Of a DNA stretch of 64,000 nt, positions 12,548 to 64,000 are shown piece by piece. Every line of letters begins with the position of its first letter. The first letter of the stretch is position 1. The DNA is taken from assembly GCF_009914755.1 (NCBI RefSeq), contig NC_060948.1; one strand, written 5' to 3'. A program made the position numbers and the translations under genes. Below the pieces are notes generated by a model, which did not search any database, was not told the origin of the DNA, and was given only the letters and a program-made list of their open reading frames with translations. Origin of the DNA: the human T2T-CHM13v2.0 reference genome, Homo sapiens.

Positions 12548-13600
12548 GTATTATTTATAATTGTAGCCGTTTTAACTGGAGTCATTTGGTATCTTGTGGT
12601 AGCTTTAATTTGCATTTTTCTAATGATAATGTTGAGCATCTTCACATGTACTTGGCCATTTGCATGTCTTCTTTGGAGAAGTGTCACATAGTGTATCTTG
12701 CCTATTGCTAAATTGTGAGTTAGTTTTGCTGTTACGTTTCTTATATATCTTTATGTTTTTCCATTGTGATATGTATATTTTGCAAATATATTCTCCCACA
12801 CTGTAAGTTGTCTTTTCACTCTGTTAATTTATTTTTGCTATGTAAATTTTTTTTTTAGATTCTGTTAATTTTATTTGTCTGCTTTTGCTTTTCTTGCCTG
12901 TGGTTTTGAGATCTTATTTAAAATGTTTTTCCTGTCCTGTTTAGTAAAGAATTTCTCTATGTCTTATTCAAATAGTTTTATAAGTTTGAGTTTACATTTC
13001 AATCTTCTATTTATTTTTATTTAAATTGTTTTAATATGGTAACAGGTAGGCAACTAGTTGTATTCCTCTGTATTTAAATAATCCATTTTCTTAGCACCAT
13101 TCGTTGAAAAGATTGTCTTTTCTTCAATGTATGTTCTAAGCAACTTAAAAATTACTTGGCTCTAGGTTTATGAATTTTGTTACTGGGATCGTTGGATACT
13201 TTGGTCTATGTGTCTGTTTTCTATGCCAGTATCATGCTGTTTTGCTTGTTATAGCTTTGCAGTATGTTTTGGAGTCAGGTAGTTTGATATTTTCAGATTT
13301 GTTCTTTTTTCACAGCTATTTGGGGAGTGTTTTTTTGGTTCCCCATAAATTTTATGCCTCTTAATTTCATTTTTGTTCAAAAATGTTCTTGGCATTTTAT
13401 AGAGTTTGCAGTGAATTTGTAGATTTCCTTGTGTAGCATAGCCATTTTAGCAATATTTTTTATAACTCATGAGCAAAAATATCTTTTTTTTTACTTTTTT
13501 CATCAATATTTTATAATTTATAGTGTAGAGAGTGTTTCTCTTTTTAATTAAGTTTACTGCTACACATCTTTATTTTTTATTCTAGATAAACAAAAAGTAT
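12548..13600 (-). mobile_element. Old L1 fragment (3' part of ORF2), antisense
   Basis: ttaatttgcatttttctaatgat..., ttagcaccattcgttgaaaagattgtc, atgccagtatcatgctgttttg; ORF 12484..12687 shows an L1 ORF2-like IIRKMQIKATTRYQMTPVK. Confidence 0.85.
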
Positions 13601-43100: not shown

Positions 43101-43361
43101 CACAGCCCCACACAAGTCCTGGCTTTATGTATGAAAGTCAACACCTTCTGTGAGTTGGGTCGAAACAGAGGAGACACAATCTAAACAATGGGCATAATCC
43201 ATGTAGAAGATGGCAATCCCACTTGATAACTGCATTCCAGGGGGAGAGTCCCAGCCTCACAGATGTGCTGAACCATGCAACCCCAAACCACCTGTGAGTC
43301 AGATCCACATATGAGAGGAACAATTTCAATCTTTTACTGCTCTTTTGGTGAGATTTAGTAC

Positions 43362-43367
43362 TTTATT
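43362..43367 (-). promoter_or_regulatory. Candidate poly(A) signal (AATAAA) for a terminal BPY2 3'UTR exon
   Basis: tttatt on +; ~7.2 kb downstream of the stop, consistent with my recollection of the BPY2 gene end; candidate acceptors near 43884 or 43731. Confidence 0.5.
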
Positions 43368-46300
43368 TGCAGGTTCTGTTCTTGTGAGAGAATGATAGTC
43401 GCGTCAGCTGGGTGTGAATCCAATAATCACAATAGCATTGGTTTGCTGTTCCCTGTTATAACACTCATTGTACTACTCACATTTTCTATGATACGCTGGG
43501 AGTGTCATAATACTGTGTGAACTTTATACCACTATGAGAACCATTACTTTGCTTGTGGCCATAAGAATGGCAATGAGAATCAAAATATCTCTCCTCTTTG
43601 GGTCCAGGTATGATAGTTGTATTATTGCATGGTATCTGAAGCTGGGTATATGACAAAATTTTACCTGCGGGCAGAAACAGAGCAGGAGAGTCTCATCACC
43701 TGGATGGTGAGCTCAGGATACATTATAATCTTAGAGAAACAGAGAAGACTCACATCACCTGGGTGCTGGACTCCGCAATATGTGATAATCCCTTGTTTTG
43801 GCAGACTCCAGAATAAAGAGGAGAGTTGCATTACCCAGTTTTTGCAGTCAGCGTTATGTCACAATTCTTTTAGTGGGCAGGACCTAGGCAGGAGAGAAGA
43901 ATCACATTTCCTAGATGTTATCACCGATGATGTCACAATGTTCTTTGGTGAAAAAGCAGAAGCAAAATAGACAAATCACCCAAGAAATAGGCTCAGATAT
44001 ATGTGACAATATCCCTACTTGGCAGGATCAAGTAGTAAAAAGTCACATTATTGTGATTCTGACCCAACGATATGTCACAATGCACACATGGGAAACAAAG
44101 CAGTTTTTACACCTGGGTACTAGGCCCAATGATATGACAATATCTCCTCATCTTTTAGGGTGACACCTTTAACTGTTAACTCATATGTATGTAAGTCACA
44201 TTGTCACGTGTGTGCTGGGCCATTGTATGACATCCTCTAGAACATCTGAGAGTTTTATACAACATGCGTGAGATTCACAAACTACTCTGAGGTCCACATG
44301 CTCATTTTGACTCTGAATATTATATATTGCCTTAAACCCAGATATGAGAGTCAGTATCTCTCATTTATGCTTAGTTCAGGAATGAGGCTTATTTTTATGC
44401 CTGTGAGCTGGGTCTAAAAATGAGTGATGGTTGCACCTGTGGCAAAATCCACAAATGAGAGTCACAATTCCATCTTTGTACTGTTTTACTTGTTAGACTC
44501 AGTATCTCAGCAATGGGCTTTCTTAATGAGGGGTGGTGACAAGTTTTACTTTCAATTGTGTGTGTAATTCAGAATCACAATCTTAACTTTTTGCTGGGCT
44601 TTGTTAGGAAACGCTGTACCACCCAAGGAGTTTATACAATATTAATTATTGTTCTGTGAGCTTTCCTCAAATACGCAACCCAGGATTTTACCTATTGCCC
44701 TAAGCCTTGCGATGAGAGGCAAAATATCTTCTATTTGCTGAATCACAATGTAAGTTTGACCATCATACCTGTAAACTGAAGCAAGGTATATTTTATAATC
44801 CCATTTGTGGGCAAAAAATTACCAAAAAGAGTAATGTCACTTAGGTGCTGTGGCACGCAGCATGTCACAGTGCTGTCTCTAGGCAGAATACAGAAAGCAG
44901 GGTCATGTTATCTGGATGCTGGACCTAGCAATATGACACAATTTTACTTGTTAAAAAAAGAAACTCAACCAAGGGATGAAAGCCAAAACACTTACAGATT
45001 TGGCTGAAGATATGTCAAAATGCCCTCTGTGGCTCTGGCACTGGTGGGACTGAAGCATCATTAGAGTGTTGGGCCTACCATTATGCAATCACTCCCTCAT
45101 TATTCAGGACTGCAGCAGAAGAGTAACATCATCTGAGTGCAATAGGTGAAATTTTCCCTTTGTGGGCATGGTTCAGAAAAAAGGAAATAGTCACATAACC
45201 TAAATCCTGGTCTCAGAAATACATCACAATTTCAGCATTTTAAAGGCTGAGGCAAGGGAAGAGAGTCATATCACTTAGGTCATGGGCTTAGAAACATGTC
45301 CCAATGTCCCCAGTAGGCAGAAGTCAGGCAGAATTCAGGCAGAAGAGGAGAGTGGTGTCTCATTGGTGCTTCTTTAGGTGTATGTCTCAATCTAACACAT
45401 GGGCAGAACCAGACAGAAGAGCCATATAACCTGGGTACTGGGTCCTAAGGTATGTTGCAAATCCCGATTAGTTCAGAACCAAGGTGAAAGAGTTACATCA
45501 CCTTGGTTCAGGTTTCACTTTCATGTCACAATGCTCTATGTGTGTGAGGCCAAAGCATTTAGTCCCATAAACTAGTTTATTGGCCCAAGAGATAGGTCAC
45601 AAAGTCCCCTGTGAAGCATAGTCTTGGCAAAAGAGTATCATCACCTGTGTGCCTGGCCTAGAAATATGTCATTCTCCAGGTTGTCAGGGCCCAAGCAGGA
45701 GAGCCGCTTAACCTAGGTAATAGGTGCAGAGATATGTCACAATGCCCTACTTTGGGCATGGCTGTGGCAAAAAGTACCCACAGCTGTATGCCTGGCTTCA
45801 CAATATGTCACCATCCTTCCTTTGTGCAAGGCCCATTCCAGAGATCAGAGTTTCATCCCTATGAGGTGCACACACAAATATGTTCACAATAATTTTGGTT
45901 GGCGTGGCACAGGCAAGAATGTGAACATCACCTGGATGCTAGATCCAGTGATATGTACAATCCTTACTGAGAGAAGGGCCCAGGCAGGAGAGTCACATCT
46001 CCTTGAGGTTGGCCTAGGTAGATATCACAATCCCACATATGGGCTGGAACAAGTCTGGAGAGTCAAATTACACTGGTGCTTAGCAAAGATTTATATCACA
46101 ATCACACTGTCAGAAAATTCCAAAGATGTGATTTACAATACCACACATGTCCTGTTTTCATGTGTGACAGTTGACTTCATCCATGAGAGATGATGACAGT
46201 CCTTACTGTCAGGCGGGTGTGCATACAAGACTCACAATTTCACCTGAGTTGAACCCTGCTTTGACTCTTTCTGTATAAACCAAAGACTCTGTAAAATGTG

Positions 46301-47699
46301 TGTGTTGTAATCTTTTGTGATGTTTGTACAAGAAAGTGATTCAGGACATCACGCATGTCCCTAAACTGAATTATAAGAGTAAAAATATTCTCTGTTGGAT
46401 GAGTCCACATATAAGAGTCATTATTATTCCTGCAAGCCCTGCCTAGGTATTTGTTATAATTTGTTCTGTTGTTATGAATCAGGCCTAACAGCCACATCAC
46501 CTAAATGCTGGGCCAGAAATATTCCAGTATTCTTTTTGCAGGAGGGGTCTTGTCCAAAATATCACATAACTTGTGTGCTAAATCCAACTCTGTTGCACAA
46601 TGTTCATTTTGGGCTGTGTCTAGGCAGGAGAGGAGAGTCACAGGACCTAAAAGCTGGGCTCAAGCATGTGTCAAAATGCCTCTCAACAGGAGAGTTTCTC
46701 CAAAAAAAGAGAGCCATGTCATTTGAATGCAGTGTTTAGAAAAGGTACAATTACTATAGGAAGCAGGGTACAGGTCAAAGAGGAGAGTCATATACCCTAA
46801 ATAATGGGTCCAGAAACATGTGACTATTTTGCCTGAGGACACTTTTTAGATAGCACAGTCAAATCACCAAGGTGCTTGATGAAGATATTTGTCAAAATCG
46901 CTTTTGTAGGCTATATCTAGGCAGAATTATTAAATCACTCAGGAACTGAAATACAATATATGTCACAATTACACTTGCGGAAAGGTTTAGGTATAAGACT
47001 CAACTGTGGGCTTTGTAAATGTGGGATGGTGGCAACTTTTAATTCCACCTGGGTGTGTAATCGAGAGTCCCAATTTGAACTTTTTGCTGGCCCCTGCTAT
47101 AAAAATTTCTACCACAAAGGAGTTTATAAAATGTAAGTTAGTTGTGTAAGTTTCTGTGAGCTTGGTACAAATATGCAGCCCAGGACCTTATCTATTGCCC
47201 CAAGCCTAACAATGAAAGGCAAATATTTTCTATTGGCTGAATCCCAGTATAAGTTTGATCATCATGGCTGTGAGCTTAAACTGGGTATATGTTATAATGA
47301 CATATGTGGGCAAAACACTACGCAGAAGGGTAACATCACTCAGATGCTGTGCCCAGCAATATGTCACAATGCCTTCTGTATGCAGGGTGTAGGAAATTGG
47401 GTCACGTTAACTGGGTGCTGGACCCAGAAATACGACACAATTTCACATGTGTAAGAAACCCAGCCCAGTTATGAGAGCCAAAACACCTACATAATGGGCA
47501 TAATATATGTCAAAATACTTTCGGTATCAGCAGCACAGGCAGGAGCATCACATCTTAAGGGTGCTGGGCCCAGCAATATACAATATGCCATAATTATCTC
47601 TTTATGCAGATCCCATGCAGAAGAGTAACATGATCTGCATGCTGGGCAATAATATGTGTCAAATTTCTTTTTTGTAGGCATGGTTCAGGAGAAAGAGAA

Positions 47700-48169
47700 G
47701 AGAAACAGATCCTGAGTCCTGGGCTCAGCAATGTAACAAAATCTTCCTTTTATGAAGGCCCAGGAAGAAAAACAGAGTCACATCACTTAGGTCATGGGCT
47801 CAGAGACATGTCCTAATATTCCAACTAGGCAGAGCTCAGGCAGGTGAGGACAGCCGAGAGTCACATATCCTGAGTCCTGGGCTCAGCAATGTGACAAAAT
47901 CCTCCTTTTATGAAGGCCCAGGAAGAAAAAGAGTCACATCACTTAGGTCATGGGCTCAGAGACATGTCCTAATACTCCAACTAGGCAGAGCTCAGGCAGG
48001 TGAGGACAGCCGAGAGTCACATATCCTGAGTCCTGGGCTCAGCAATGTGACAAAATCCTCCTTTTATGAAGGCCCAGGAAGGAAAAGAGAGTCACATCAC
48101 TTAGGTCATGGGCTCAGAGATATGTCCTAATACTCCAACGAGGCAGAGCTCAGGCAGATGAGGACAGCC
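47700..48169. repeat. Recent tandem triplication of a ~157-bp unit
   Basis: cctgagtcctgggctcagcaatg starts at 47711, 47869 and 48025; copies nearly identical. Confidence 0.95.
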
Positions 48170-50539
48170 ATATCACCTATGTGCTTCCATCAAAATATGT
48201 CACAATTTAACATGGGGGCAGAAACTATGCAGAAGAGCCACATCACTTGGGTGCTGGGTCCTGTGATATGTCACAAAGTGCTCTTAACACAGCACCTAGC
48301 CAAGAGAAATACATCATACTAGGTGAAGGGTCTCTGCTTATGACACAATGCTTCATCTGGTTAGGACCCAGGGAGAGAGTCACTTCATTTAGGTGATAGG
48401 CCCAGAGATATGTCACAATGTACTGTGTGAAGCATAGCCCTGGAAAAGGGTACCATCACCTGTGTGCCTGGCCTAGAAGCGTGTCACTTTCGAGGTTGGA
48501 AGGACCCTAGCAGGAGAGCCACATAATGTAGGTGATAGACCCAGAGATATGTCACATTGCCCTCCTCCAGGCATCCACAGGATAAGGAGGAACCTTGCCT
48601 GTGCGCCGGTCCTTGCGCTATGTCACTATCATTCTGTTGTGCAGTGCCCATTCCAGAGAGGAGACTCACATCAACTATGAGGTAAACACAGAAATATGTC
48701 ACAATAATTTTGGTGGGCAGGGTGCAAGTAAGGATGTAACGTTACCTGGGAGCTAGGTCCAGTGATATGTCACAATCATTACTGAGAGATAGGACAAGGC
48801 AGGAAAGTCATGTCACCTCGAGGTTGGCCTAGGTAGATTTCATAACCCCACCTATGAGCTGGAACAAGTCCGGAGCCTCAGATTACACAAGTGCTTAGCA
48901 AAAATTTATATCATACTCACACTGTCAGAAAATTCCAAAGATGAGATTTACCATCTTACCACACATGCCCTGTTTCATGTGTGACAGTTACCTTTATCCA
49001 TGTGAGATAATGAGTTCTTACTTTCAGCTGGGTGTGCAAACAAGACTCATGATTTCATCTGTGTGCTGAGCCCTGCTTTGACTTTGTGTGTATGACCCAA
49101 AGACTTTGTAAAATATGTATGAGTGTTGTAATATTTTGTGACCTTTGTACAAGAAGGAGATCCAGGACATCATGCATGTCCCTAAACTGAGTTATAAGAT
49201 GCAAAATATCCTCTATTGGCTGAGTCCACACATGAGAGTCATTATCATGGCTGTGAGCCATGCATAGGTATATGTTACAATTCACTCTGTGGTTAAGAAG
49301 GAGGCCTGACAGCCATATCACATAAATGCTGGGTCAGAAATATTCCAATATTCTTTTTGTAGTCAGAGCCCTCTCAGAAATATCACATAACTTATGTGCT
49401 ATGTCCAGCTCTATGGCTCAATATCCCTTGTGGACAGTGTCTAGGCAGGAGAGGAGAGTAATATCACCTAAATGATGGGCCCAAAATTTTGTCACAATTC
49501 TTCCTGTTGACAGGTCCCAGGCAAGAGTGTCATATCATTTGGATGCAGGGATTATAAATACTACAATCCACCAAAGAAGCAGGGTACAGGCAGGAGAGAA
49601 GAGTCACGTAACCTAGATGAAGGGCACAGAAATATGTTACAAGAGCCCCTGAGGACATTTCAAGATACATCAGCCAGATCACCAAGGTGCTTGACCAATG
49701 TATCTGTCAAAATCTCATTTGCTATACCTAGGCAGAATTATTAAATCACTCAGGAGTTGAGCAAAGGTATATGTCACAATCAGACTTGTGGAAAGGCTTA
49801 AGTCTAAGAGTCACCATCCTGCACAAGTCGTATGCTCTAGTCATATGAGTTGTTACTAGGCTTTTGTTTTGGTCTCTGGTACATGGCAGAATATCACCTG
49901 TGGCCAGAGAGAACACAAGAAAGTCCCATCACCTATGTGGGTCTGGGCCACTAAGACATCACTATTCACCTTGTGGGTAGGAACCTGGTGGAAGAGCCAC
50001 AGCACCTGGATTTCAGTGACATATCAAAAGCCTCTCTTCTGGGCAGGGCTTTGGCAAGAGAGGAGACTCACTTCACAAAGGCAGTTGGCCTAGATGTTTG
50101 CCACAATGTCTATTCCGTGCAGTAACCAAACTGTAGAGTGGCCTCACATAGGTGTTTGTCCCAGGAAATATGTCACAATCTGCCTGTGGTCTGGGCCAAG
50201 GCGAAAGTGAAGAAACATCACCTAGGTACTGAGCCAAGTGATATGTTCAATGCTTCCTGTTGGCAGAACCCAAAAAGAAGAATCACATCACTTGAATGCA
50301 GTACCCAGTTCTTTGTCACAATGCCCTGTAAGTGCATGGCCAAGGAAGTAGAAGAGAGTCACATCACTTACAGGATGGACCTAGATATATAACAAAATTC
50401 CTTTTGTAGAAAGGTTTCAGGCAGATAACTCACATCATCTGGGTGATGGTCCCAGTGACATATGTAAAATTTCCCTTTGAAGGCAGAGCCACGATGGATG
50501 TTATCTATTGCTTAGCTGCTTGTTCCACATATGGCACAA

Positions 50540-50558
50540 TTACTTCTGTGATCTGGGC
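50540..50558 (-). CDS. BPY2: BPY2 coding exon 4 (stop exon; exon probably extends to the donor at 50434)
   Basis: ctcattttctag|g ccc aga tca cag aag taa; downstream donor gat|gtgagt at 50433. Confidence 0.93.
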
Positions 50559-53500
50559 CTAGAAAATGAGTCAAATTATTCATTTGCTGGACAAAGTGAC
50601 CTATCCCAATATGACACTCTCATATATGTTCGGAAATAAGTTTCACATCCCACACAAGTCCTGGTTTTGTGTATGTGAGTCAATTCTTTCTGTAAGTTGG
50701 ATCAAAATGGAGGAGTCAAAATCTCAACAATGGGCAAGATTCATGTATAAGAGCCGCAATCCCCCTTGAACATTGTGGTCCAGGAGGGGAGTCACGGCAC
50801 CACAGGTGTGCTGAATCCTGGTTCAAATGTTAACAAACCACCTGTGGATCAGGTCCATGTAGGTGAGTAATTATTTCAAACATCGACTGCTTTTTATGTG
50901 TGAGATTTAGTCCCTCATTCCTAGACCCTGTTAATATGCGAGAATGACAATCATTTCAGTGAAGTGTGCATACAAGAGTCATATTCTTACCTGGTTGCTG
51001 GTCTCTGTTATGACACTCTTTGCACCATTAATGCTTTATATGATATACCTGAGTATTATAATCCTTCGTGACTTTTATACAAGTGAAAAACACAGGGCTT
51101 TACCCATGGCCGTGAGACTGGCTATGAGAGTCAAAATATTCCTACAGGCTGGGCCCAGGTATGAGAGTTATTTTTGTCCATGCGTGCTTAACCCAGGTAC
51201 GTGTCAAAATTTCACCTGTAAGCAGAGACAAGGAAAGGGAGTCAACTCACCTCGACACTGAGCCAGTGATACAGCATAATCTCATTTGTATGCTGGGCCT
51301 AGTCAGAAGAGTCACTTCACCCGGGTACAGTTTCACATAATATGTCAGCAAGCCCACTATGGACAGGGAAGAAAAAAGAGAGGACAGTCAGTCCACCTAT
51401 GTGCTGGACTCCGCAATATGTAACAACCCTCTCTCTTGGTAGAGTCTAGAATATGAAGGAGAGTCACATCATGTAGGTTTTTCAATCAGCGGTATGTCAC
51501 AATTTGTTTGCTGAGCAAGGCTCAGGCAGGAGGTGAGAGTCACATTACCTAGATGTTAAGCCAAACAATATTTCACAATGTCTTCTGGGTGCAGGACACT
51601 GTCAGAAGAGACAAATCCTCTAGCTTATAGACCCATAGATATGTGATAATATCCCCTTTTGGCAGGGTCCAGACAGAAGAGACACATTATGATTCTAACA
51701 CAGTGATATGTTACAATCCACCCAAGGAAAGGAATTTAAGCCAAATAGTCTCAACACCTAAGCACTATGCCTATTAATAGGCCAAATCCCCTTGTCTTTG
51801 AGAGTGACATTATAAACTCTGAGCTGGGTGTGTATATGAGAGTAACAATTTCACTAGTATCCTGGGCCGTTGCATGACTCTCAACAATTTTCAAAAGCTT
51901 TATACATCACGCATGAGAGTTTCAAACCACTCTAAGGCCTACATATTCACATGGATTCATGACCTTACATATTCCCCTAAACCCAGGTATAATAGTCAGC
52001 ATCTCCTCTATAGGCTGGGTTAGAAATGAGACTCATTTTTATGCCTGTGAGCTGGATCTAGAAATAAGTCACAATCCCACCTGTGGCCAGATCCACATAC
52101 GAAAGTCACAATTCCAACTTTGCACTGCATTCATTTGTAAAACTCAGGTTCTTAACAATGGCCTTTGGACATGTAGAATGATGACAGCACTTGCTTTTAC
52201 CTGGGTGTGTAATCAAGAATCTCAAACTGAACTCTTCACTGGTCCCTATCACCAAACTCTCTATACCAACAAAGAAGTTCATACATTATGAGTTAGTGTT
52301 GTAAAGCTCTGTGAGCTTGGTACAAATATGCAACCCAGACTTTATGTATTGCCCAAAGCCTAGCAATGAAAGGTAAAATATCTCCTATTGGCTGAATCTC
52401 AGTATAAATTTGACCATCATGCCTGTGAACTGAAGTCATAGTCCCATTTGTGAGCAAAAAAAGTAGGCCCGAGGGTAACATCACTTAGGTGTTGTGCCAA
52501 GCAACATGCCACAGTGCCCTCTCTAGGTAACATAGAGGAATTAGAGTCATGTTAACTGAGTTCTGGACTCAGCAATATGAAACAATCCATTATGTGGAAA
52601 CAAACAAAAACAAAAGTGAAAAAAAAAAAAAAAAAAACAGCAAAAAGATAAGAGCCAAAACACCTACATAATGGGCCCAGGATCTGTGAAAATACCTTCT
52701 CTGCCTCCAGCAAAGTCATGAGTTTTATATTTTCAGGATGCTGGGCCCAGCAGTATGTTATAATATTCTCTACATACAGGACCCACGTAAAGGCGTAACA
52801 TTATCTGGGTGCTGGGCCCTGCAATAGGCCAAAATTTCTGTTAGTGGGCATGATTTGAGATTAAAAAAAAAAAAGGTGAATCAAATAACCTGATTGCTAG
52901 GTTGAGCAATATTTCACAATCTCTCCATTGTAAAGACCCAGCAGAAAAAGAGAGTCACTTCCCTTAGTTCATGGGCTCAGAGATATAGTCCAGTGTACCC
53001 AGTGAACAGGGCCCAGGCAGAAAGGGAGACTCATATCACCTAAATGTTTCCCTAGTTATATGCCAAAAACCTTACCCACGGGCAGAAACCAGGCAGAAGA
53101 GCCACATCACCTGGGTACAACTGCAAGTAATATGTCACCATCCCCAGCATAGATAGGTTTCTTATAAAATTAGATAATGACACCACGTGGGTGCTCTGCT
53201 CACCAATATGTAACAATTCCCTCTCTTGACAGAGTCCAGGAAAAAAAGGGGACTTCTGTCACCTAGGCTCTGCACTCAATGGTATATGACAATTTTTTCA
53301 GTGAGGAGGATCCAGGCAGTAAAGATGGGTCAAATTTCCTAGATTCTAAATCCAGCAATATGTCAGTGTCTCCTCTGGGCAAAGTACTGGCAGGAGAGAC
53401 ATATTACATAGCCAATAGGCCTGGAGATATGGGAAAATATCCTCTGTTTGCAGGGCCCTGGAAGAAGAGTCACATTATTTTGATTCTGACCCAGTGATAT

Positions 53501-56465
53501 GTAACAATGCCCTAATGGAATGAAATTTAAACTAAAAGTTCTCAACACCAGCTAGTAGGGCAAGATATATGACAAAATCTCCTCATCTTTAAGGGTGACA
53601 CCATTAAATGTTAGCTATCTGTGTATAAGAGAGTCACAATCTCATGTGTGTGCTTGCCATTGTATGACACTCTCTATAATACCTGAGAACGTTATGCAAC
53701 ATGCATGAGAGTTGCAATCCTCTCTGAGGCCTACAGGCATTTACAGAATTATGATTATGCATATTGCCCTAAACCCAGGTATGACAGTCAGCATCTCTCC
53801 TATAGACTGGTGTTAGGGATGAGATCATTATTATGACTGAGAGTTGGCTCCAAAAATGAGTCACCATCCCACCTGCGGCCATATTCATTTATGAAAGTCA
53901 CAACTCCATCTTTGTGGTGTATTTGCTTAGACTCAGGATCTCAACAATGGGCTTTGTAGATGTAGGATGGTAAAAACTTACTTTCATCTGAGTGTGCAGT
54001 CAAGAATCATAATCTTAACTGTTTGCTGGGCACTGTTAAGAAACCCTTTGTATCACCCAGGAAATTTTTATTACATGAGTTAGTGTTGTAAACTACTGTG
54101 AGCTTTGTAGAAATGTGCAATGAGTAACCTGACTCTTTGACCTAAACCTGGTGGTGAGAGGAAAAATCTCTCCTATTGGCTGAATCCCAACATAAGCTTG
54201 ATCATCATACCTTTGGACTGAAGCAAGGTATTTCTCACATTCCCATTTTTTAGCAACCTATGCAGAATATTAACATCACTTAGGTTCTTTGTCAAGCAAT
54301 ATGTCATGATGCCCTCTGTAAGCAGCACCTAGGAAAGAGGGCCACATTAACTGCAGGCTGGAGTCAGCAATATAATACAACCACACGTGGAAGAAATTCA
54401 GCAAAGTGGTAAGAGTGAAAACACCTAGAAAATGGGCCAAAGATATGTCGAAATACCTTCTGCGGTCCTGGCACAAGCAGGAGAGTCACATCATTAGGGT
54501 TCTAGGCCAAGAAATATGCCACAATTTTCTCTTTATGCACAACCTAGGCAGAAGAGCAGCTTCATCTGGGTACTGGGCCCTGAAATACGGCAAAAGATCT
54601 GTTCCTGGGCGTTGTTCAGTTACAAGATGAGAGTCACATTACCTAAATGCTGAGCTCATCAATATCTCATAATCTTACCATTGTAAAGCCCTAGACAAAA
54701 ATAGAGTCACATCACTTAGGTCACAGGCTTAGAAATATGGCCCAATATCACCAGTAGGCTGGGTTCAGACAGAAGAAGAGTCATATTACCTAGATGCTTC
54801 TTTAGCTATATGTCACAATTTAATATGTGGGTGAAAACCAGGTTGAAGAGCCACATCATGTGGTCCTGGGTACTGAGGTATTCACAAGTCCCTCTTAGAA
54901 AAGGACCCAGGCAAGAGAGTTATGTCACCTAGGTGCAGATTCCACGCTTATGTCTCAATACTTCATGTGGGCAGGACCAAGCAGGAAGTCACATCACCTT
55001 GGTGATAGGACCAGGTATATATGACAAGGCATTTTTGAAAGCATGGCCCTGGCAAAAGAGTTCCATCACCATTGTGCCTGGCCTAGCAGTATGTCACTAT
55101 TCAATTGGGCAAGTTTCAAGCAGAAGAGCCGTATCACCTACACGATAGGTCCTGTGATATGTCAAATGCCCTTTTTTGGGCATAGCCCTGGGAAAAGAGC
55201 ATCATCACCTGTGTGCCTGGCCTAGAAACAGGTCACTATTTTGCCCAGTGTTCAAGGCCCTTTCCAGAGAGGAGAGTGACATCTTCTAACTGATGGACAC
55301 TGCAATATGTCACAATGATATCTGCGAGCATGGCGCAAGCAAGAATGTAACGTCACCTGTGTGCTGGATCCAATGATGTTATAATTCTGAGTGGAGGGCC
55401 CAGGCAAAAGAGTCACGTCACTTCAAGGTTGGCTTAGGTAGATACCAAAATCCCATAGGTAGGCTGGAACCAATCTGAAGGGTGAACTCACACAGGCACT
55501 TGGCAAAGATTTATATCAGTCATGATGGAATAAAATTCTAGGGATTAGATTTACAATATCAGGCGTGTTCTATTTTTATGTGGGACAATTGCCTTCATCA
55601 TCTGTAATGGTGAAAGCCGTTACTGTCAGCTGAATGTACATATGAGAATCCCAATTTTCTCCATGTGCTAGGCCCTGTTATGACTCTCTCTATACGACAC
55701 AAGGATGTTATAAAATATGTGTGAATGTTGTAATCTTCTGTGACCTTTTTACCAGAAGGAGATGCTGGATATCACTTATCTCCCTAAGCCTAGTTATAAG
55801 AGTCAAAATGTTTCCTATTGGCTGGGTTCACATATGAGAGTCCTTATCATGTATTTTAGATGTGTCTACAGATACGGCGCCATCTCATCTGTGGTAATTA
55901 AACAGGCAGAAAACGACATCACCTAAATCCTAAGCCAGAAATACCCCAACTTTATTTTGTAGAGAGGGCCCTAACAGAAATATGACAAAACTTAGGTGCT
56001 AGACTCAGCTCTATGGCATAATGCCCTTTGTGGAGTGTGTCCAGGCAGTAGAGGAGAGTCATATCACCTAAATGAAGGGCCCAGAGAGATATCACAAAGC
56101 CCCCCCTTTAAAAAGCCCAGACAAGAGACTCATGTCATTTGGGTGCAGTGCTTAGAAATGCTACTCTTCACTGGAAGCAGGGTTCATGCAGAAGAGGAGA
56201 GTCATGTAACCTAGACAATGGCTCCAGAGATATGTTATGATCACTTCCGAGAACCTGTTAGGACACAAGAGTAAAATCACAAAGGTTCCTGGGAAAGGTG
56301 TAGGTCCAAATGTCATCTGCGGGCTATAACAAGGCAGGATTATTAAATCACTCAGGAGCTGGGTAAAGGTGTATGTCACAATAGTACCTGTGAAAATCTG
56401 GGGCAGGGATGAGAGTAATGATCCTGTCCTGCACGTGTCCTGGCTCTGGGGACAAGCGTCATCAT
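50540..56465 (-). CDS. BPY2: BPY2 (VCY2) basic charge Y-linked 2, spliced CDS, 106 aa
   Basis: join(56465..56388, 54328..54211, 51356..51251, 50558..50540) = 78+118+106+19 = 321 nt, all introns GT-AG. Translation MMTLVPRARTRAGQDHYSHPCPRFSQ/VLLTEGIMTYCLTKNLSDVNILHRLLKNGNVRNTLLQSK/VGLLTYYVKLYPGEVTLLTRPSIQMRLCCITGSVS/RPRSQK*. The copy (BPY2, B or C) cannot be told from sequence; minus orientation would fit BPY2C if this is the reference + strand. Confidence 0.97.
51251..51356 (-). CDS. BPY2: BPY2 coding exon 3
   Basis: ttttttcttccctgtccatag|tg ggc ttg ctg...gtg tcg ag|gtgagt; GLLTYYVKLYPGEVTLLTRPSIQMRLCCITGSVS. Confidence 0.96.
54211..54328 (-). CDS. BPY2: BPY2 coding exon 2
   Basis: ctctttcctag|gtg ctg ctt aca...tcc aaa g|gtatga; VLLTEGIMTYCLTKNLSDVNILHRLLKNGNVRNTLLQSK. 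Confidence 0.96.
56388..56465 (-). CDS. BPY2: BPY2 coding exon 1 (exon starts at 56506 with 41 nt of UTR)
   Basis: Acceptor ttctctctgcccacag| at 56507-08; ATG at 56465; MMTLVPRARTRAGQDHYSHPCPRFSQ; donor cag|gtacta. Confidence 0.96.
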
Positions 56466-59400
56466 TAGGCTTTTTATCTGGTCTCAGGTAAATGGAACAA
56501 TATCACCTGTGGGCAGAGAGAAAAAGGAAAGTTCCATCACCTTAGTGGATGCTGGTCCAGTGAAATGTCTCAATTGTCCTTGTGGCTAGGACTCTGATAG
56601 AAGAGTCACATCATCCGGATGCTGGTTTCAGTGACATATAAGATCCCCCCTGTGAGCAGAACTTAGGCAGGAGAGAAGACAAACTTCACTTAGGCAATTG
56701 GCCTGAATATACGTCACAATGGCCCCTATGTGTAGGATCAAGGCAGGGGAGTAACCCTCGCTTTGGTGCTAGGTTCAGCAACATGTCACAATCTCTCTGG
56801 CGGTCAGGGCACAGGCAAGAGAAAAGAAATATCACCTAGTCGCTGAGCCAAGTAATACGTTACAAAGCTTCCTACTGGCAGAAACTTCATTCTCCAAAAA
56901 AGTCACATCACCTGGGTGCAGTACCTAGTTACGTGTCACAATCCACCACCAGAAGTGCAGGGCCAAGACAGTAGAAGGAAGTCATGTCACTTAAGTAATC
57001 AACTTATATAAAAACCACAGTGCTCTCTGTAGGCAGGCCTCAGGCCAAGATTTCACATCAGCCAAGTGCTGATCTCAGTGATATGTAAAAGTGCCCTATG
57101 TTTCATTACCAAAAAAGATGTTACTTATTGCTTAGGTGCTTGGTGCATGTAAGTCACAATTTCAACTGTGCTCTGGGCCTAGAAAGGAGAGTCAAAACAC
57201 TCAGATTCTGTGCAAAGTTATACTTCTCAGTTACACACTCAAAAATGTTCAGAAATAAGTTTCACAGTCCCACACAAGTCCTGGATTTGGGTATGAGAGT
57301 CAACACCTCCTATAAGTTGGGTTGAAGTACAGGTGTCACAATCTCAAAAATAGGAAAGATCCACATAGAAGAGTCTCAATCCCACTTGAAGATTGTGTTC
57401 CAGTAGGAAAGTCAAAGTACCACAGTTTGACTAAATCATAGTTCAAACATCACCAAATCACCTATGGATCAGATTCGTGTATGAGAGTAACAATTTCAAG
57501 CTTCAACTGCTTATGTGTGTGAGATTTACTACCTCATTTGTAGGCTCTGTACATGTGTGAAGATGAAAATCATGTCAGTTGTCTATGCATCCAAGAGTCA
57601 CAATGGAACCTGGTTGCAGGTACCTGTTATGAAACTCTTTGTAACATTCAGGCTTTATATGATATGCCTGAGTAGTATAATTTCCCGTAAATTATTACAG
57701 GTGGGAGATCTAGGACTTTACCCATGGCCTTAAGACTGCCTGTGAAAGTCAAATATCTCCCACTGGCTAGGTCTAGGTATGAGAGTTATTATTGTGCTGA
57801 ATCCAGTTATTATATGAGCTGAATCCAGGTATACATCACAATTTCACCTTTGGACAGAGACAAGAGAGAAGAGTTACATTATCTGGTTGCTGAGCAAGGG
57901 ATACGTTATAATTTCCTTTTTAGTCAGGACCCAGTCAGAACAGTCATATCACCTGGATACAGTCTCAGATAATATTATCATGACCACTAAACCCTGGATT
58001 GAAAAATAGAGGATTGTCACGCCCCTAGGTGATGGGCTCAGCAATATTTTATTATTTCCTCATTAGCAGAGTTCAAGACAAAGCTCACTGGCAGAGTCCA
58101 AGACAAAGAAGAGAGTCACATCACCTAGGTTTTGCACTCAGTGGTATGTCAAAATTTCTTCAGTGGCCAGAATCCAGGCAGGAGTGGAGAGTCACATTAC
58201 CTAGATACTATAGTGATATGTCCCAGTGTCCACTGTGGCAGGGCACTGGCATGAGAGACACCACATCACCTAGCTGATAGGCCCAGAGATACGTGATAAT
58301 ATCCCCTGTTGGCTGGGTCCAAGAAGAAGTTTCACATTATTAGGATTCTGACCCAGTGATAATTCACAATGCACCTATGGGCAAAATTTAAGCCCTAATT
58401 CTCAACACTTGGTTACCAGGCCTAGTGATAAGACACACTCTCCTCATCTTTTAGGGTGACACCTTTAACTTTCAGCTAAGGTTGAATATTAGAATCACAA
58501 TCTCACATGTATGCTGGGCCAATGTATGACACTCTTTACATCCGAGGGCTTTATAAAACCTGCATGAGAGTTGTAAACCTCTCAGCGACCTGCATGCTCA
58601 TATGGGTTCACAATTTTACACATTGCCCTCAATTCAGATTTGATAGTCAGCATCTCTTTTATATGTAGGGTTAAAGGAGAAGACCCATTATTATCCCACC
58701 TCCAGACAGATCCACATATAAATTCACAATTGCAACTTTGTGCCGTATTCCACAGTGGGCATTGTATATGTAGGATGGTGACAACTTTTAATTTTACTGG
58801 GGTGTATAATCAGTACTCCAAATCTGAACTTTCTACTGGGCCCTGTTATGAAAGTTTTTACCACCAATGAGTTTATACAATATAAGTTAGTGTTGTAATC
58901 TTTGGACTTTGTACAAATATGCAACTCTCTGTGTACAAATATTACTCTCTGTGGTTATGAAGCAGGCAGAACAATCACATCACCTAAATTCTTGGCCAGA
59001 AATATTCCAATATTCTCTTTGTAGGCAGGATCCTGTAGAAATGCCACATAAATTGTGTGCTAGATCCAGCTTGGTGGCACAGTGTCCCTTATTGGCAGTG
59101 TCCAAGCAGGAGAGGAGAGCTGCCATATCAGGTAAATGATGGAACCCAAAATATGTCACTATGCCTCCTCTTGACAGGGCCCAGGCAAGAGAGTCATATC
59201 ATTTGGATACAGTGTTTAGAAATGATACAGTTACCAAAGAAAATCATGTACAGGTGGGAGAGAACAGTCATGTAACCTATGTGATGGGCCAGAAATACGT
59301 TACAGTCACGCCTGTGGATATTATTAAGATAACACAGTCAAATCATGAAGATGCTTATACCAAGGATTTGTCAAAATCTCATTTTGATGCTATACCTATG

Positions 59401-60915
59401 CAGAATTATTAAATCACTAAGGAGCTGGGTAAAGGTATATGTCACAGTTACACTTGTGTATCGCTTTAAGACTAAGAGTCACCATGCTGCACATGTCCTG
59501 GCTCCAGATATATGTGTTGTTATTAGGCTTTTATTTATGGTCTCTTGTATAAGGCACAATATCGGCAGTGGCCAGAGAGAAGAGAAGAAAATCTCATCAG
59601 CTACATGGGTGTGGATTCAGTGAGAAGTCACAGTCTACCTTGTGGACAGGACCCTGGCAGAAGAGTCAAATCACCTGGATGCTGGTGTCAGTGAAATATC
59701 AAAACCTCTTCTCTGGGCAGGATTTTTGCTAGAGAGGACACTCACTTCACTTGGGCAATTGGCCTAGCTATTTGTCACAATGCTTCTTATGTGCATTACC
59801 AAGGCTGGAGAGTGACCTCACAAGGGTGCTGGACCCAGAAATATGTCACAATCTCCCTGTGGTCAGGGCGAGGACAATGCGAGGAAACATCACCTACATT
59901 CTGAGCTAAGTGATATGTTACCATGTTCCAGTTGGCAGAACGCAAAAAGGACAATGATCTCCTGGACACAGTTTCTGCTTATGTGTCAAAATGCACTGTA
60001 AGGGCAGGGCCAAGGCAGTAGAAGGGAGTCACTTCAATTCATGGTGGATGTAGATATAAAACACAATTCCTCTTGTAGGCAGGTTTTAGGCAGATAATTC
60101 ACATCACCTGGGTGATGGTCCCAGTGATATATGAAAGTGCCCTTTGCAGACAAGGCCAAAGAAGGTATTACATATTTCTTAGGTGCTTGTTCAACATAGG
60201 GCACTATTTCATCCGAGTTCTGGGCCTAGAAAAGAGAGTCAGATTATTCATGTGCTGGACATGGTTACCTGTCCAAATCACACTCTCAGATATGCTTGGA
60301 AATAAGTTTCACATGCCACACAACACCTAGTTTCCTGTACCTGAGCCAACTCTTTCTATGAGGTAGATCTTAGTAGAGGAGTCACAATCTCAACAATGGT
60401 CAAGATTCATGTATAGGAGCCCCAATCCCCCTTGAAGACTGTGTTCCAGTAGGGAAGACACAACACCACAGGTGTGCTGAATCATGGTTCAAACTTTACC
60501 AAACCACCTGTGAATCAGATCTATGTGTAAGAGTAATTATTTAAACATTTGACTGTTTTTTTATGTGTGAGATTAGTATCTCATTCCTACGCCCTGTTCA
60601 TGTGTGAGAATGACAATCATGTCAGCTGGGTGTGCATTTAAAAGTCCCATTCTCACTTCATTTCTGGCCTCTCTTATGACACTCATTGTACAATTAAGGC
60701 TGTATATGATATACCCGAGTGTTATAATCCTTTGTGAACTTTATACAGTTGAAAAACTCAGGACATAACCCATTGTCGTGAGACTGCCTATGAGAGTCAA
60801 TTATCTCTACTGGCTGGGTCCAGGTATGAGAGTTATTATTCTGCATGTGTGCTTAACCCAGATATATGTCAAAACTTGGCCTGTGAGCAGGGACAAGAAA
60901 GGAAAGTCACATTAC

Positions 60916-61052
60916 CTGGGTGTTGAGCCAATTATACAGTGTAGTATTATTTGAAGGCTGGGCATAGTCAGAAGTGTCAGCTTTATGCTGGTCCAGTGAT
61001 ACAATATAATCTTGGTGATGTGACAGCCTCAAAGATTATGTCACCAAGCACA
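60916..61052 (-). other. BPY2: Candidate 5'UTR exon of BPY2 (paralog of coding exon 3)
   Basis: Long pyrimidine tract then ...cctggcaatag| acceptor at 61053-54 and donor cccag|gtaatg at 60915; lies ~9.67 kb from exon 3 in the duplicated segment. Confidence 0.5.
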
Positions 61053-64000
61053 CTATTGCCAGGAAAAAAAGAAAAAGAGGAGTGTCACTCTACTCTACCT
61101 CAGTGCTGGGCTTTGCAAACTGTAATAATCTGCTGGCTTGGAAGAGTCTAGAATATGAAGGAAAGCCACATCACATAGATTTTGCAATCAGTGCTATGTC
61201 ACAACTTCTTTGGTGAGCCACACCCAGGCAGGAGAGTAGAATCACGTGACCCAGATGTTAAGTTAATATTTTCCAATGCCTTCTGGGGGCAGGGAACATG
61301 CAGGAGAGAAAAATTCCCCTACTTATAGGTCCAGAGATATGTGATAATATCCCCTGTTGGCAGGGTCCAGACAGAAGAGTCACATTACAATGATATGAAC
61401 CCAGTGATACGTCACAGTGCACCTGTGGGAAAGAATTTATGCCAAAATGTCTCAACAGGTGGGTACATGGCCTAGTAATATACCAAATTTTGTTGCCTTT
61501 GAGGGTGACACCATTAACTGTGAACTGACTGTCTACATGAATATAACAATTTCATGTGTTTCCTGGGCTGTTGATTGACACTCTGTGACATTTGAAGGCT
61601 TTATACAGCATGCGTGAGAGTTGCAAACCACTCTGAGGCCTACATGTTTGTATGGATTCATGATCTTACATATTACCCTAAACTCAGGTATAATAGTCAA
61701 CATCTCTTCTGCAGTTTGGGTTCAGGGATGAGACAGTTTATTATGCCTGTAAGCTGGATCCAGAAATGAGTCACCATCCCACCCGTGGCCAGATCCACAT
61801 ATGAAGGTCACAATTCTGATGTTGTACTGTATTCACTTGTTAGACTCAAGACCTTAACAGTGAGGTTTGGACATATGGAATAGTGACAACGTTTGCTTTT
61901 ACTTGGTTGTGTAATCGAGAGTCCCAATCTGAATTTTTGCTACTCCCTGTCATGAAACTCTCTGTACTCCACACATTTATACATTATGAGTTAGTGTTGT
62001 AAAGGTCTTTGAGTTTGGTACAAATATGCAACCCACAACCTCACCTATTTCCCTTGTTCTAGTGATAAAAGGCAAAATATCTCCTTTGGCTGATTCCCAG
62101 TGTAATTTAGACCATCATGCCTGTGAACTGAAGTAAGGTATATGTCATAATCCTATTTGTGGGCCAAAACTAGGCAGGGGTGTAACATCACTGTGCTGTG
62201 CCAAGCATCATGCCACAATGCCATCTCTAGGCAGCGTATAGGAATTAAGTCATATTAACTGGGTACTGGACACAGCAATATGACACAATCCCATATGTAG
62301 AAAAAGAACAGGCAAAAAATCAGAGCCAAGACATCTACAGAATAAGCTCAGTATATGTCAAAATGCCTTCTGTAGCTGCAGGAAAGCATGACAGTCACAT
62401 TTTTAGTGTGCTATTATTATATATTAGTATATGCCATAATTCTCCGTGTACGCAAAATCCAGGCAAAAGAGTAACATTATATGTGTGCTGAGCCCTGCAA
62501 TAGGTCAACATTTCTGTTTGTTTGCATGGTTCAAGAGAAATAGCTGTCAATAAATCTGAGTGCTGGGCTCAGCAATATGTCACAATGCCGTCACTGCAAA
62601 GACCAGACTGAAGAAGAGAGTCACTTCACTTAGGTCTTGGGCTCAGAGATAGATCCCACTGTCCCAGTAGGGCAGGGCATGGGCTGAAAAGGAGAGTCAT
62701 ATACCTAGGTGCTTTCCTAGTTGTATGTCACAATCTAACATGTGAGCAGAAATCAGGCTGAAGAGCCACATCACCTGGGTAGACCCTCAGGTAATATGTC
62801 ACCATGCCCAATGTAGACAGATTTGATGAAAAATAAAAGTAAAAAAAGAATCACAACACCTGGGTGCTGGGCTCAGCAATATGTAGAAATTCCCTGTCTT
62901 GGCAGAGTCCAGGACAAATAGGAGAGTCATGTCACCTAGGTTTTGCACTCAGTTGTATGTCACAATTTATTTGGTGGACAGGTTCCAGGCAGGAGTATTA
63001 CCTAGATGCTGTATCTAGTGATATATCACAATGTCCCCTGTGGGCAATGCACTAGCAGGAGAGACATATCACCTGGCCAATAGGCTTGGGGGTGTGTGAA
63101 AATATCCCCTGTTTTCAAGGCCATTATCATTATTCTGACCCAGTGATATGTGACAATGCCCTTTTGGAAAGGAATTTAAACAAAAATGTCTCAACACTGG
63201 GGTATGACGCCAAGTGATATGACACAATCTCTTCACCTTTAACGGTGACACAATTAATGGTTAGCTAGTTGTTTATATGACAGTCACAATCTCATGTGTG
63301 TGCTGACCCTTGTATGACATTCTCTGCAATATCTGAGAACACTATACAACATGCCTGAGAGTTGAAAACCTCTCTGAGGCCCACATGCTTATATGAACTC
63401 ATGATCTTACATATTGCCCTAAACCAAGGTATGACTCTCAACATCTCTTCTCTAGGCTGGCTTCAGAGATGAGACTGTTTTTAAGCCTGTGACCTGGGAC
63501 CAGATATGTATGAGTCACCATCCCACCCGTGACAAGATTAGCTTTTGAAAATCACAACTCCAACTTGGTCCTGTATTCACTTGTTAGACTCAGGACCTTA
63601 ACAATGAGATTTGTAAATGTGAGAAGATAACAACTTTTACTTGCATTTGAATGTGTAGTGGAGATTCACAATCTCAATTTTTTGTTGGGATCCGTCATAA
63701 ATATCTCTGTACCACCCAGGAAGGTTTTATGATATGAATCAGTGTTGTAAGTTTCTCTGAGCTCTGTATAAATATGCAATGAAGGGACTAACTTATTGAT
63801 GTAAACCTAGCAATGCAAGGCAAAATATCTCCTGTTGGCTGAATCCCGATATAAGCTTGATCATCATGTTTTTGAACTGAATCAAGGTATCTGTCATAAC
63901 CCCATTTGTGGGCAAAATCTAGGCAGAAGGTTAACATCACTTAGGTGCTGTTCCAAGCAATATGTCACAATACTCTACCTAGGCAGGGCCTAGGAAAGAG

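What the first reader, a model, noticed from the sequence alone, without database searches (positions are those of the whole stretch)
56380..56510. Enabling mutations for BPY2 exon 1 can be read against in-window paralogs
Seen: six paralogous modules at ~5750-5830, 8100-8185, 37340-37425, 42235-42320, 49780-49860 and 59450-59530. On the minus strand BPY2 has cctaATGATGacg. Four paralogs have ataaca/gtaaca (no ATG) and two (~8175, ~42308) have atcATG. BPY2 has the donor cacag|GTacta where paralogs read e.g. ccacaagtgtaat. BPY2 also has a private 5-bp duplication (atcctgtcctgcac versus atcctgca). Inference: start codon, donor and frame were each gained by small mutations in one repeat copy.
Basis: partly seen in the sequence, partly recalled or inferred. 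Interest (0 to 1): 0.75.

Follow-up and report, generated by a model that had tools for sequence, protein, structure and literature searches.

The report
BPY2 start exon built from satellite repeats
The exon that starts the human Y-linked BPY2 protein is one unit of an old, decayed satellite-like repeat whose units already carry splice-site-like motifs and an ATG, so only a few small changes were needed to open a reading frame; the gene's origin from non-coding DNA is already published.

Summary
Six in-window paralogs of the BPY2B start exon exist at 69-73% identity. Their ATG states are as described, and the 5-bp duplication is absent from all 26 other copies compared.

The inference is only partly right. 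The six paralogs belong to two other subfamilies (A, B) of the repeat. The exon belongs to subfamily C, whose other members lie outside the window on chr8, chr7, Yp and Yq, at 76-88% identity. Against these closer copies:
- The acceptor is inherited.
- The CAG|GT donor is inherited (9 of 27 copies; GT in 24 of 27).
- The second ATG is inherited (11 of 27 copies).
- The first ATG is shared with one non-coding Yp copy.
- The 5-bp duplication, a 3-bp insertion and the GTGTTA>GTACTA donor change are seen only in BPY2.

De novo origin of BPY2/VCY2, including the gained ATG and a frame-shifting insertion in this exon, was published by Cao et al. 2015.

One result I did not find in print. The locus is a strand-specific array of ~71-bp units related to the 68-bp beta satellite. 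All 13 splice junctions of the seven in-window BPY2 exons fall on four positions of that monomer. The two start codons sit on a dead copy of its donor motif.

The parts
56388..56506 (-). BPY2B exon carrying the start codon (119 nt, coding part 56388-56465). It is one module of the repeat array. The equivalent stretch is 110-113 nt in 23 of the 25 other copies that hold it whole.
   Evidence: Annotation given with the finding
56507..56526 (-). Pyrimidine tract plus CACAG acceptor. The AG falls on positions 54-55 of the antisense satellite monomer. AG is present in 22 of 26 copies.
56463..56465 (-). ATG1, the annotated start. It is ATA in most subfamily-C copies and ATG only in BPY2 and the Yp copy L005. 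It aligns to GTG at monomer positions 23-25.
56460..56462 (-). ATG2 (codon 2). It is present in 11 of 27 copies and aligns to the ATG at positions 26-28 of the monomer's donor motif CAG|GTGATG, which is dead in this unit.
56422..56431 (-). Tandem CAGGA-CAGGA. The 5-bp duplication is found in BPY2 only (1 of 27). It moves the ancestral in-frame TGA out of frame and makes the ATG-to-donor distance a multiple of three.
56403..56405 (-). TGC codon. Most subfamily-C copies read CCTGAACC here, which would be a TGA in the post-duplication frame. BPY2 and the two L005 copies read CCTGCCCC (3 of 27).
   Evidence: the frame argument is inference
56397..56399 (-). 3-bp insertion found in BPY2 only (1 of 27). 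It is frame-neutral, and its exact placement within 56397-56401 is ambiguous.
56382..56390 (-). Donor CAG|GTACTA. It lies on the monomer position (55|56) that serves as the acceptor for four other BPY2 exons. Eight other copies read CAG|GTGTTA.
59370..59666 (-). In-window paralog, subfamily A (ATAACA, CAA|GT, acceptor lost)
49706..49996 (-). In-window paralog, subfamily A (GTAACA, CAA|GT)
42156..42453 (-). In-window paralog, subfamily B (ATCATG, CCA|GT)
37257..37539 (-). In-window paralog, subfamily A (ATAACA, CAA|GT)
8023..8317 (-). In-window paralog, subfamily B (ATCATG, CCA|GT, acceptor lost)
5690..5956 (-). In-window paralog, subfamily A (ATAACA, CAA|GT)
34200..64000 (-). Main block of the diverged ~71-bp-unit array related to the 68-bp beta satellite. 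It holds all seven in-window BPY2B exons.
2700..12600 (-). Second block of the same array, same orientation. The stretch between the blocks (12.6-34.2 kb) has no unit.

Best explanation
The BPY2 start exon is one module of an old, strongly diverged, strand-specific array of ~71-bp units related to the 68-bp beta satellite. That array makes up the BPY2 locus and its non-coding relatives on chr8 (the BEYLA/LINC00293 region named by Cao et al.), chr7, Yp and Yq.

Read in the BPY2 sense, each unit carries three motifs: a donor-like CAG|GTGATG, a pyrimidine-rich stretch, and an acceptor-like CACAG|G that in this array usually reads CACAG|GT. The exon begins at one such CACAG|G. It reads through a unit whose donor motif has decayed, and the ATG of that motif survives as codon 2. 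It ends at the next CACAG|GT, used here as a donor.

The splice sites and one ATG were therefore inherited from the repeat (shown). The reading frame was opened stepwise on the Y lineage (order inferred by parsimony from copies in one genome). First came changes shared with a non-coding Yp copy, probably BPY2DP: ATA>ATG, and a TGA>TGC change at 56405-56403. Then came changes seen only in BPY2: the 5-bp CAGGA duplication, which bypasses the old TGA at codon 15 and sets phase 0 for the only open frame of the downstream exons; a 3-bp insertion; and a small donor change.

That BPY2 arose de novo from non-coding DNA through such changes is already published (Cao et al. 2015). The satellite ancestry and the repeat-templated splice sites are the part I did not find in print.
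For: Subfamilies: IQ-TREE on 27 copies gives clades A 100/99, B 100/100 and C 97/96. BPY2 is sister to the Yp copies L005 at 100/100.

Closer relatives outside the window: 88% (Yp), 82% (chr8) and 81% (chr7), against 69-73% for the in-window copies. There is 3.3-kb colinearity at about 82%.

Trait table: 5-bp duplication 1/27; 3-bp insertion 1/27; ATG1 2/27; ATG2 11/27; CAG|GT 9/27; GT 24/27; AG acceptor 22/26; in-frame stop in 24/26 other copies.

Phase: downstream exons are open only in phase 0.

Array: the 25-nt junction motif has 135 hits on the minus strand, 0 on the plus strand, and about 1 in shuffles. Spacings cluster at 71, 111, 141 and 212 nt.

Satellite link: an HMM built from chr1 68-bp satellite dimers gives 186 hits at E<=0.01, all on one strand, best E 3e-13, against 6-8 hits at E<=10 in shuffles. 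The reverse HMM gives 116 hits, best E 8e-13, against 2-5 in shuffles. The 471 nt around the exon align colinearly to tandem monomers at 309/428 identity, score 231.5, against a maximum of 115.5 in 100 shuffles.

Splice sites: all 13 junctions map to monomer positions 55|56, 42|43, 22|23 or 27|28.

Literature: Cao et al. 2015, Results read in full.
Against: No ape or macaque sequence could be examined here. The order of events rests on paralogs within one human genome, where gene conversion between copies could mislead.

Ancestral sequences were not reconstructed (the tool does not offer it), so 'inherited' versus 'gained' rests on trait counts and tree position.

The single-junction alignment for this exon's donor scores 48.0. 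That is above the shuffled 95th percentile (42.5) but just under the shuffled maximum of 49.

The array fails two classical beta-satellite features: the Sau3A site is mostly absent, and the units are too diverged for TRF to detect.

Naming the chr1 satellite 'beta satellite' rests on its 68-bp period, its GATC site, my recall of the consensus, and two literature passages on the 68-bp Sau3A ladder. It does not rest on a repeat-library match.

The 106-aa ORF is only modestly longer than chance: 23 of 1000 dinucleotide shuffles reach it.

Cao et al. describe a 4-nt insertion where I see 5 nt.
Confidence: 0.8

Rival explanations
1. One reading: start codon, donor and frame were each gained by private small mutations in a single repeat copy, as read against the six in-window paralogs.
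For: Against the six in-window copies alone, BPY2 is the only one with ATG1, with G at -1 of the donor, and with the 5-bp duplication. Its donor pairs far better with U1 than theirs, -7.1 against -1.4 to -4.0 kcal/mol.
Against: The six copies belong to other subfamilies. Closer copies already have CAG|GT (8 other copies), ATG2 (10 other copies) and ATG1 (the Yp copy L005). Only the frame changes are found in BPY2 alone.
Confidence: 0.1
2. The paralogs are decayed copies of an older protein-coding exon, and BPY2 is the survivor.
For: The family consensus has a good acceptor and a GT at the donor place, which looks exon-like.
Against: 24 of 26 other copies have an in-frame stop, mostly the same TGA at codon 15 across all three subfamilies. 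ATG1 is absent from 25 of 26. The splice-like motifs recur every ~71 nt, are features of a satellite monomer, and are not exon boundaries. In that monomer, ATG is followed directly by TAA. Cao et al. report the same disablers in autosomes of apes, Old World monkeys and marmoset.
Confidence: 0.03
3. The exon and its changes are real, but the ORF is a neutral accident in a spliced testis non-coding RNA of the BEYLA/TTTY kind. The 'enabling' changes were then not selected for coding.
For: 23 of 1000 dinucleotide shuffles of the 1052-nt in-window mRNA part reach a 106-aa ORF. ATG-started frames open to the junction occur in 24 of the 26 other copies; most run 10-13 codons, the longest 36. No high-confidence complete ORFs were found in bonobo or the orangutans, and BPY2 exon positions are not conserved among apes (passages and one section read).
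Against: Cao et al. cite western blot and immunostaining of human testis, and binding partners MAP1S and UBE3A (I did not read those primary papers). Coding copies are reported in human, chimpanzee and gorilla. All three human copies are identical over the 319 nt examined.
Confidence: 0.15

Closest known systems
De novo origin of VCY2/BPY2 (Cao et al. 2015, PLoS One, PMC4370482; Results read in full)
   Same: Same gene, same exon, same conclusion. The ATG replaces ATA/ATT. A short insertion bypasses a premature stop about 42 nt downstream. The non-coding homologs (BEYLA on 8q11, chr7, macaque Y, BPY2DP, and an 8.5-kb duplicate in the 5' UTR) share the disablers.
   Different: That paper compares autosomal and primate homologs, not the six in-window modules. 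Its text contains none of the words satellite, tandem, splice, splicing or donor. It reports a 4-nt insertion plus TGA/TAA>TTA. I see a 5-bp tandem duplication that by itself takes the TGA out of frame, a separate 3-bp insertion, and a TGA>TGC change needed in the new frame.
Beta satellite (Sau3A family, ~68-bp monomers)
   Same: The array's ~71-bp units match a profile of a 68-bp, GATC-bearing chr1 satellite in both directions, with E down to 1e-13 and about 72% identity over 428 aligned positions.
   Different: The units are 60-80% alike, interspersed in multi-kb higher-order duplications, and not detected by TRF. They mostly lack the GATC site and lie in euchromatic amplicons. This is a relative of the classical satellite, not a member.
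Exonization of antisense Alu elements (recalled from general knowledge, not checked here)
   Same: A repeat read in one orientation supplies a pyrimidine tract with AG and near-consensus donors. Few point changes then create exons.
   Different: Here the source is a tandem satellite-like array, not a dispersed retroelement. It supplies every junction of a multi-exon gene, and the same motif serves as acceptor in some units and as donor in this one.
BEYLA/LINC00293 and BPY2DP, the non-coding relatives
   Same: They have the same module with the same acceptor and CAG|GT or TAG|GT donor. The Yp copy L005 (probably BPY2DP, judged from its place and from Cao's description) even has ATG1.
   Different: They keep the in-frame TGA/TAA at codon 15 and lack the 5-bp duplication and the 3-bp insertion.

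Membership tests
De novo protein-coding gene | Homologous sequences that are non-coding and share disabling features | tested here: met
   24 of 26 other copies in the same genome have an in-frame stop, and 25 of 26 lack ATG1. The exceptions are w49706 and L030, which have no stop, and L005, which has ATG1.
De novo protein-coding gene | Orthologs in outgroup species are non-coding (ancestral state) | not testable with these tools
   No primate genomes are held. Cao et al. 2015 report it for ape, Old World monkey and marmoset autosomes and for macaque Y. Their alignment figures are not held.
De novo protein-coding gene | Identifiable enabling mutations on the lineage to the gene | tested here: met
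   ATA>ATG is shared with L005. The 5-bp duplication, 3-bp insertion and donor change occur in BPY2 only.
De novo protein-coding gene | Transcription and translation of the ORF | not testable with these tools
   RefSeq NM_001002760.1 is given with the finding. Protein evidence is known only as cited by Cao et al..
Beta satellite (Sau3A family) | Sequence similarity to the 68-bp monomer | tested here: met
   186 one-strand hits at E<=0.01, a reciprocal HMM, and 309/428 identity around the exon.
Beta satellite (Sau3A family) | Head-to-tail units of about 68 bp | tested here: inconclusive
   Modal spacing is 71 nt, with multiples at 141 and 212 nt but also many irregular spacings. TRF finds no such array.
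Beta satellite (Sau3A family) | One Sau3A (GATC) site per monomer | tested here: not met
   There are 76 GATC sites in 39.7 kb of array, against about 560 unit lengths.
Beta satellite (Sau3A family) | Homogenised satellite block | tested here: not met
   Copies are 60-85% alike and are arranged in multi-kb duplications.
Repeat-derived (exonized) exon | Splice sites lie at recurrent positions inside the repeat unit | tested here: met
   13 of 13 junctions fall at four monomer positions. Alignment scores are 48-103, against a shuffled 95th percentile of 42.5 and a maximum of 49.

The most novel reading that the evidence does not exclude
BPY2 is a protein-coding gene whose whole exon-intron skeleton is templated by an ancient beta-satellite-like array. 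One motif of the unit serves as acceptor or as donor, another as donor, and a dead donor supplies the start codon. The same array underlies BEYLA and probably the neighbouring testis non-coding RNAs. That would explain why ape BPY2 transcripts use different exons: any unit can be exonized. The array is present in marmoset according to Cao et al. It could be the low-copy progenitor from which the classical hominoid beta satellite later expanded. No paper found in searches or 52 links BPY2 with beta satellite. A RepeatMasker track may already show it without comment.
Probability: 0.45. Interest if true: 0.65.

Novelty: already known. Interest (0 to 1): 0.4.

Why it matters
BPY2 is a well-documented human de novo gene and lies in the AZFc infertility region. 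But it repeats a 2015 paper and uses the wrong outgroups, so it overstates what had to be invented.

The useful addition is mechanistic. The raw material was a satellite-derived array that is dense in ready-made splice signals: 62 CAGGTG on the gene strand against 13 on the other. It also carries an ATG in each unit's consensus. Transcription through such an array yields spliced RNAs almost for free, and a 5-bp slip was enough to connect an ATG to an 80-codon open frame. This offers a concrete, testable reason for the unstable exon usage of BPY2 among apes. It is also a possible example of a satellite-like array acting as a substrate for gene birth.

Tried and rejected
I did not attempt it any other way and used trait counts on the tree instead.
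- MaxEntScan is not available. I used matches to the donor consensus and a U1 duplex energy as a crude stand-in.
- TRF at minimum score 30 found no ~71-bp array; the units are too diverged.
- A first attempt to cut satellite monomers with an exact anchor gave only one monomer and the script failed. It was replaced by an nhmmer-seeded alignment.
- The supplements of Cao et al. held here are four tables only. The alignment figures S7 and S8, which may show the BPY2DP and 5'-UTR copies base by base, could not be seen.
- I considered that the ~2.35-kb spacings recall the DAZ repeat unit. I dropped this, because the units here are directly tandem ~71-mers with no sign of DAZ.
- A literature search for beta satellite plus splice, exon or de novo gene returned nothing on point.
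Full report
**What is there.** The window is human chrY (T2T) with BPY2B on the minus strand. The exon 56388-56506 reads, in the gene's sense, a pyrimidine tract and cacag|GTGATATT... at its 5' end. It has ...GCCTA ATG ATG ACG... with the annotated start at 56465. It ends ...TTTTCACAG|gtacta. The spliced coding parts give 321 nt, a 106-residue protein. The exons downstream of this one are open only in phase 0: 80 codons, against stops at codons 8 and 17 in the other two phases.

**Checking the observation.**
- The seven-row alignment confirms ATAACA/GTAACA in four copies and ATCATG in two. It also confirms the extra CAGGA in BPY2.
- The donor GT is invariant in all seven rows.
- The consensus of the family already has a pyrimidine tract and CAG|G at the acceptor.
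- BPY2 has a further private 3-bp insertion.
- The observation therefore stands, with these additions.

**The in-window copies are the wrong comparison.**
- A search of the whole assembly gave 141 candidates, of which 40 were scored and 41 matches listed.
- Besides the three identical BPY2 copies, the best matches are a Yp copy (88%), chr8 (82%), chr7 (81%) and further chr8, Yp and Yq copies (75-82%). All are closer than the in-window copies.
- I aligned 25 unique copies, added two from the Yp locus L005, and built a tree.
- The tree gives three clades. A (100/99) holds w49706, w37250, w59370, w5680 and one chr8 copy. B (100/100) holds w8023, w42156, two chr8 copies and one Yq copy. C (97/96) holds the BPY2 exon with 16 copies from chr8, chr7, Yp and Yq.
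- BPY2 is sister to the L005 copies (100/100).
- The 3.3-kb loci around the chr8 and chr7 copies align colinearly to window 54.8-58.15 kb at about 82%. Their next-best in-window matches are 73-76%.
- The in-window duplications are therefore older than the split between the Y copy and the autosomal copies.

**Trait counts over the 27 copies.**

| Trait | Count |
|---|---|
| 5-bp duplication | 1/27 |
| 3-bp insertion | 1/27 |
| ATG at codon 1 | 2/27 (BPY2, L005 main copy) |
| ATG at codon 2 | 11/27 (BPY2, all five B copies, five C copies) |
| AG at the acceptor | 22/26 |
| GT at the donor | 24/27 |
| CAG\|GT at the donor | 9/27 |
| In-frame stop before the junction | 24 of 26 other copies |

- The in-frame stop is usually TGA at codon 15. 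The two copies without a stop are w49706 and L030.
- The exon-equivalent is 110-113 nt in 23 of the 25 other copies that hold it whole, and 119 nt in BPY2.
- Only BPY2 has a 26-codon ATG frame that reaches the junction in phase 0. Shorter ATG frames open to the junction occur in 24 of the other 26 copies; most run 10-13 codons, the longest 36.
- In a crude U1-pairing measure (U1 end typed from recall), the BPY2 donor scores -7.1 kcal/mol. The CAG|GTGTTATT form in eight C copies scores -6.7. The six in-window paralogs score -1.4 to -4.0.
- The donor was therefore essentially in place before BPY2.

**Order of events (inferred).**
- The Yp copy L005 is probably BPY2DP, because it fits Cao's description of a copy with a start codon but a premature stop in exon 1.
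- It shares ATG1 with BPY2, along with GTCCCCAGAGCC, CCCTGCCCC and TTTTCACAG.
- It lacks both insertions, keeps a TAA at codon 15, and keeps the GTGTTA donor.
- The 5-bp duplication alone turns the 70-nt ATG-to-junction distance into 75 nt, which is phase 0. It also reads the old TGA out of frame.
- In that new frame the usual CCTGAACC would give a TGA. BPY2 and L005 read CCTGCCCC there.
- The 3-bp insertion is frame-neutral.
This order is parsimony on present-day copies of one genome.

**What the repeat is.**
- The junction motif CACAGGTG.TATTGTGACATATACC occurs 135 times on the gene strand at 17 or more of 25 matches. It occurs 0 times on the other strand and about once in shuffles.
- Spacings cluster at 71, 111, 141 and 212 nt. 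The hits lie in two blocks, about 2.8-12.5 kb and 34.3-63.9 kb.
- A short motif that I recalled from beta satellite occurs 3,907 times in the assembly, against 0 for the control. On chr1 it forms arrays with 67-68-nt spacing.
- A profile built from 59 hits in three of those loci has a 68-nt consensus unit with a GATC site. It finds 261 places in the window at E<=10, of which 250 are on one strand. At E<=0.01 it finds 186, all on one strand, with best E 3e-13. Shuffled windows give 6-8.
- A profile built from 33 of the window's own units finds the chr1 satellite 116 times in 9 kb, best E 8e-13, against 2-5 in shuffles.
- The 471 nt around the exon align colinearly to tandem antisense monomers at 309/428 identity. 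The score is 231.5, and the maximum over 100 shuffles is 115.5.
- Two papers describe beta satellite as ~68-bp Sau3A-ladder monomers (passages only). I therefore call the array a diverged relative of beta satellite.
- It is not a classical member. The GATC site is mostly missing (76 sites in 39.7 kb), and TRF does not see the periodicity.

**How the repeat shapes the gene.**
- Read antisense, the monomer consensus contains three motifs. CACCCAG|GTGATG is donor-like, at position 22|23. TCTAG|G is at 42|43. CCTACAG|G is at 55|56, behind a pyrimidine-rich stretch.
- All 13 junctions of the seven in-window BPY2B exons fall on these places.
- Acceptors: four at 55|56 and three at 42|43.
- Donors: four at 22|23 and one at 27|28. 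The donor of the exon in question falls at 55|56, the place used elsewhere as an acceptor.
- The local alignments score 48-103, against a shuffled 95th percentile of 42.5 and a maximum of 49. The weakest is this exon's donor.
- ATG1 and ATG2 align to positions 23-25 (GTG) and 26-28 (ATG) of a unit whose donor motif has lost its GT.
- The second start codon is thus the consensus ATG of the repeat.

**What is known.**
- Cao et al. 2015 (Results read in full) already showed that VCY2/BPY2 lies in a segment transposed from autosomes.
- They showed that BEYLA on 8q11, a chr7 fragment, macaque Y, BPY2DP and an 8.5-kb duplicate in the 5' UTR are non-coding with shared disablers.
- They showed that in exon 1 ATG replaces ATA/ATT, and that a short insertion plus TGA/TAA>TTA avoids a stop 42 nt downstream.
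- Their text does not mention satellite, tandem, splice, splicing or donor.
- Their alignment figures are not held here.
- Tomaszkiewicz et al. 2023 (passages) found that BPY2 exon positions are not conserved among great apes.
- A 2024 preprint (one section read) found coding copies in human, chimpanzee and gorilla only. Both fit a substrate in which many units can be exonized.
- Searches for BPY2 with 'beta satellite', 'beta-satellite', 'BSR', and a mixed set of terms gave no paper that links the two.

**Verdict.**
- The finding is real, and its core idea is right for the frame.
- It is overstated for the start codon and wrong for the donor.
- As a claim about BPY2's origin it is already published.
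- The satellite ancestry and the repeat-templated splice sites are the part worth following up.

Noticed in passing
window 43343-61052 (all seven BPY2B exons): Every splice junction of the seven in-window exons falls on one of four positions of the antisense satellite monomer. Exon lengths (106-137 nt for six of them) reflect unit spacing.
   Followed up: yes
L005 (G000:C24:7592035-7595268, Yp): The Yp copy, probably BPY2DP, carries an extra partial copy of the exon region, from just after ATG1 to about 130 nt past the donor. This is inserted about 0.9 kb upstream of the main copy. There is also a deletion of about 1.2 kb downstream, relative to BPY2.
   Followed up: partly
L030 (G000:C24:26037254-26037546, with two further amplicon copies at 24417271 and 23646905): A subfamily-B copy has ATG2 and no in-frame stop up to the junction (22 codons). 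Its junction is the weak CCA|GT, and the phase does not fit BPY2's downstream exons.
   Followed up: no
window 47705-48169 and 40815-41062: Young local tandem duplications lie inside the old array: 156 nt x 3.0 at 96% matches, and 128 nt x 1.9 at 85%. The array is therefore still being re-amplified locally.
   Followed up: no
window 12600-34200: The stretch between the two array blocks holds TRIM60P7Y and all the stretches listed as masked. It has no hit to the satellite profile at E<=0.01.
   Followed up: no
L031, L032, L035 (chr1 satellite loci): The profile of the window's units hits the chr1 satellite on both strands (80 minus, 36 plus). This suggests an internal inverted symmetry of the monomer around the ..CACCTGGGTGATG.. 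motif.
   Followed up: no
window 56460-56468: ATG1 has C at -3, and ATG2 has A at -3. By the usual context rule the inherited ATG2 is the better-placed start, so the gained ATG1 may not have been needed.
   Followed up: no
G000:C24:24246309-24246603 (window place 66309-66603, just outside): The nearest subfamily-C paralog of the exon lies 2.3 kb beyond the window end. It falls in the stretch where Cao et al.'s 8.5-kb 5'-UTR duplicate would lie (my inference; its coordinates are not given). It reads ACAACA, keeps the TGA, and has CAG|GTGTTG.
   Followed up: partly
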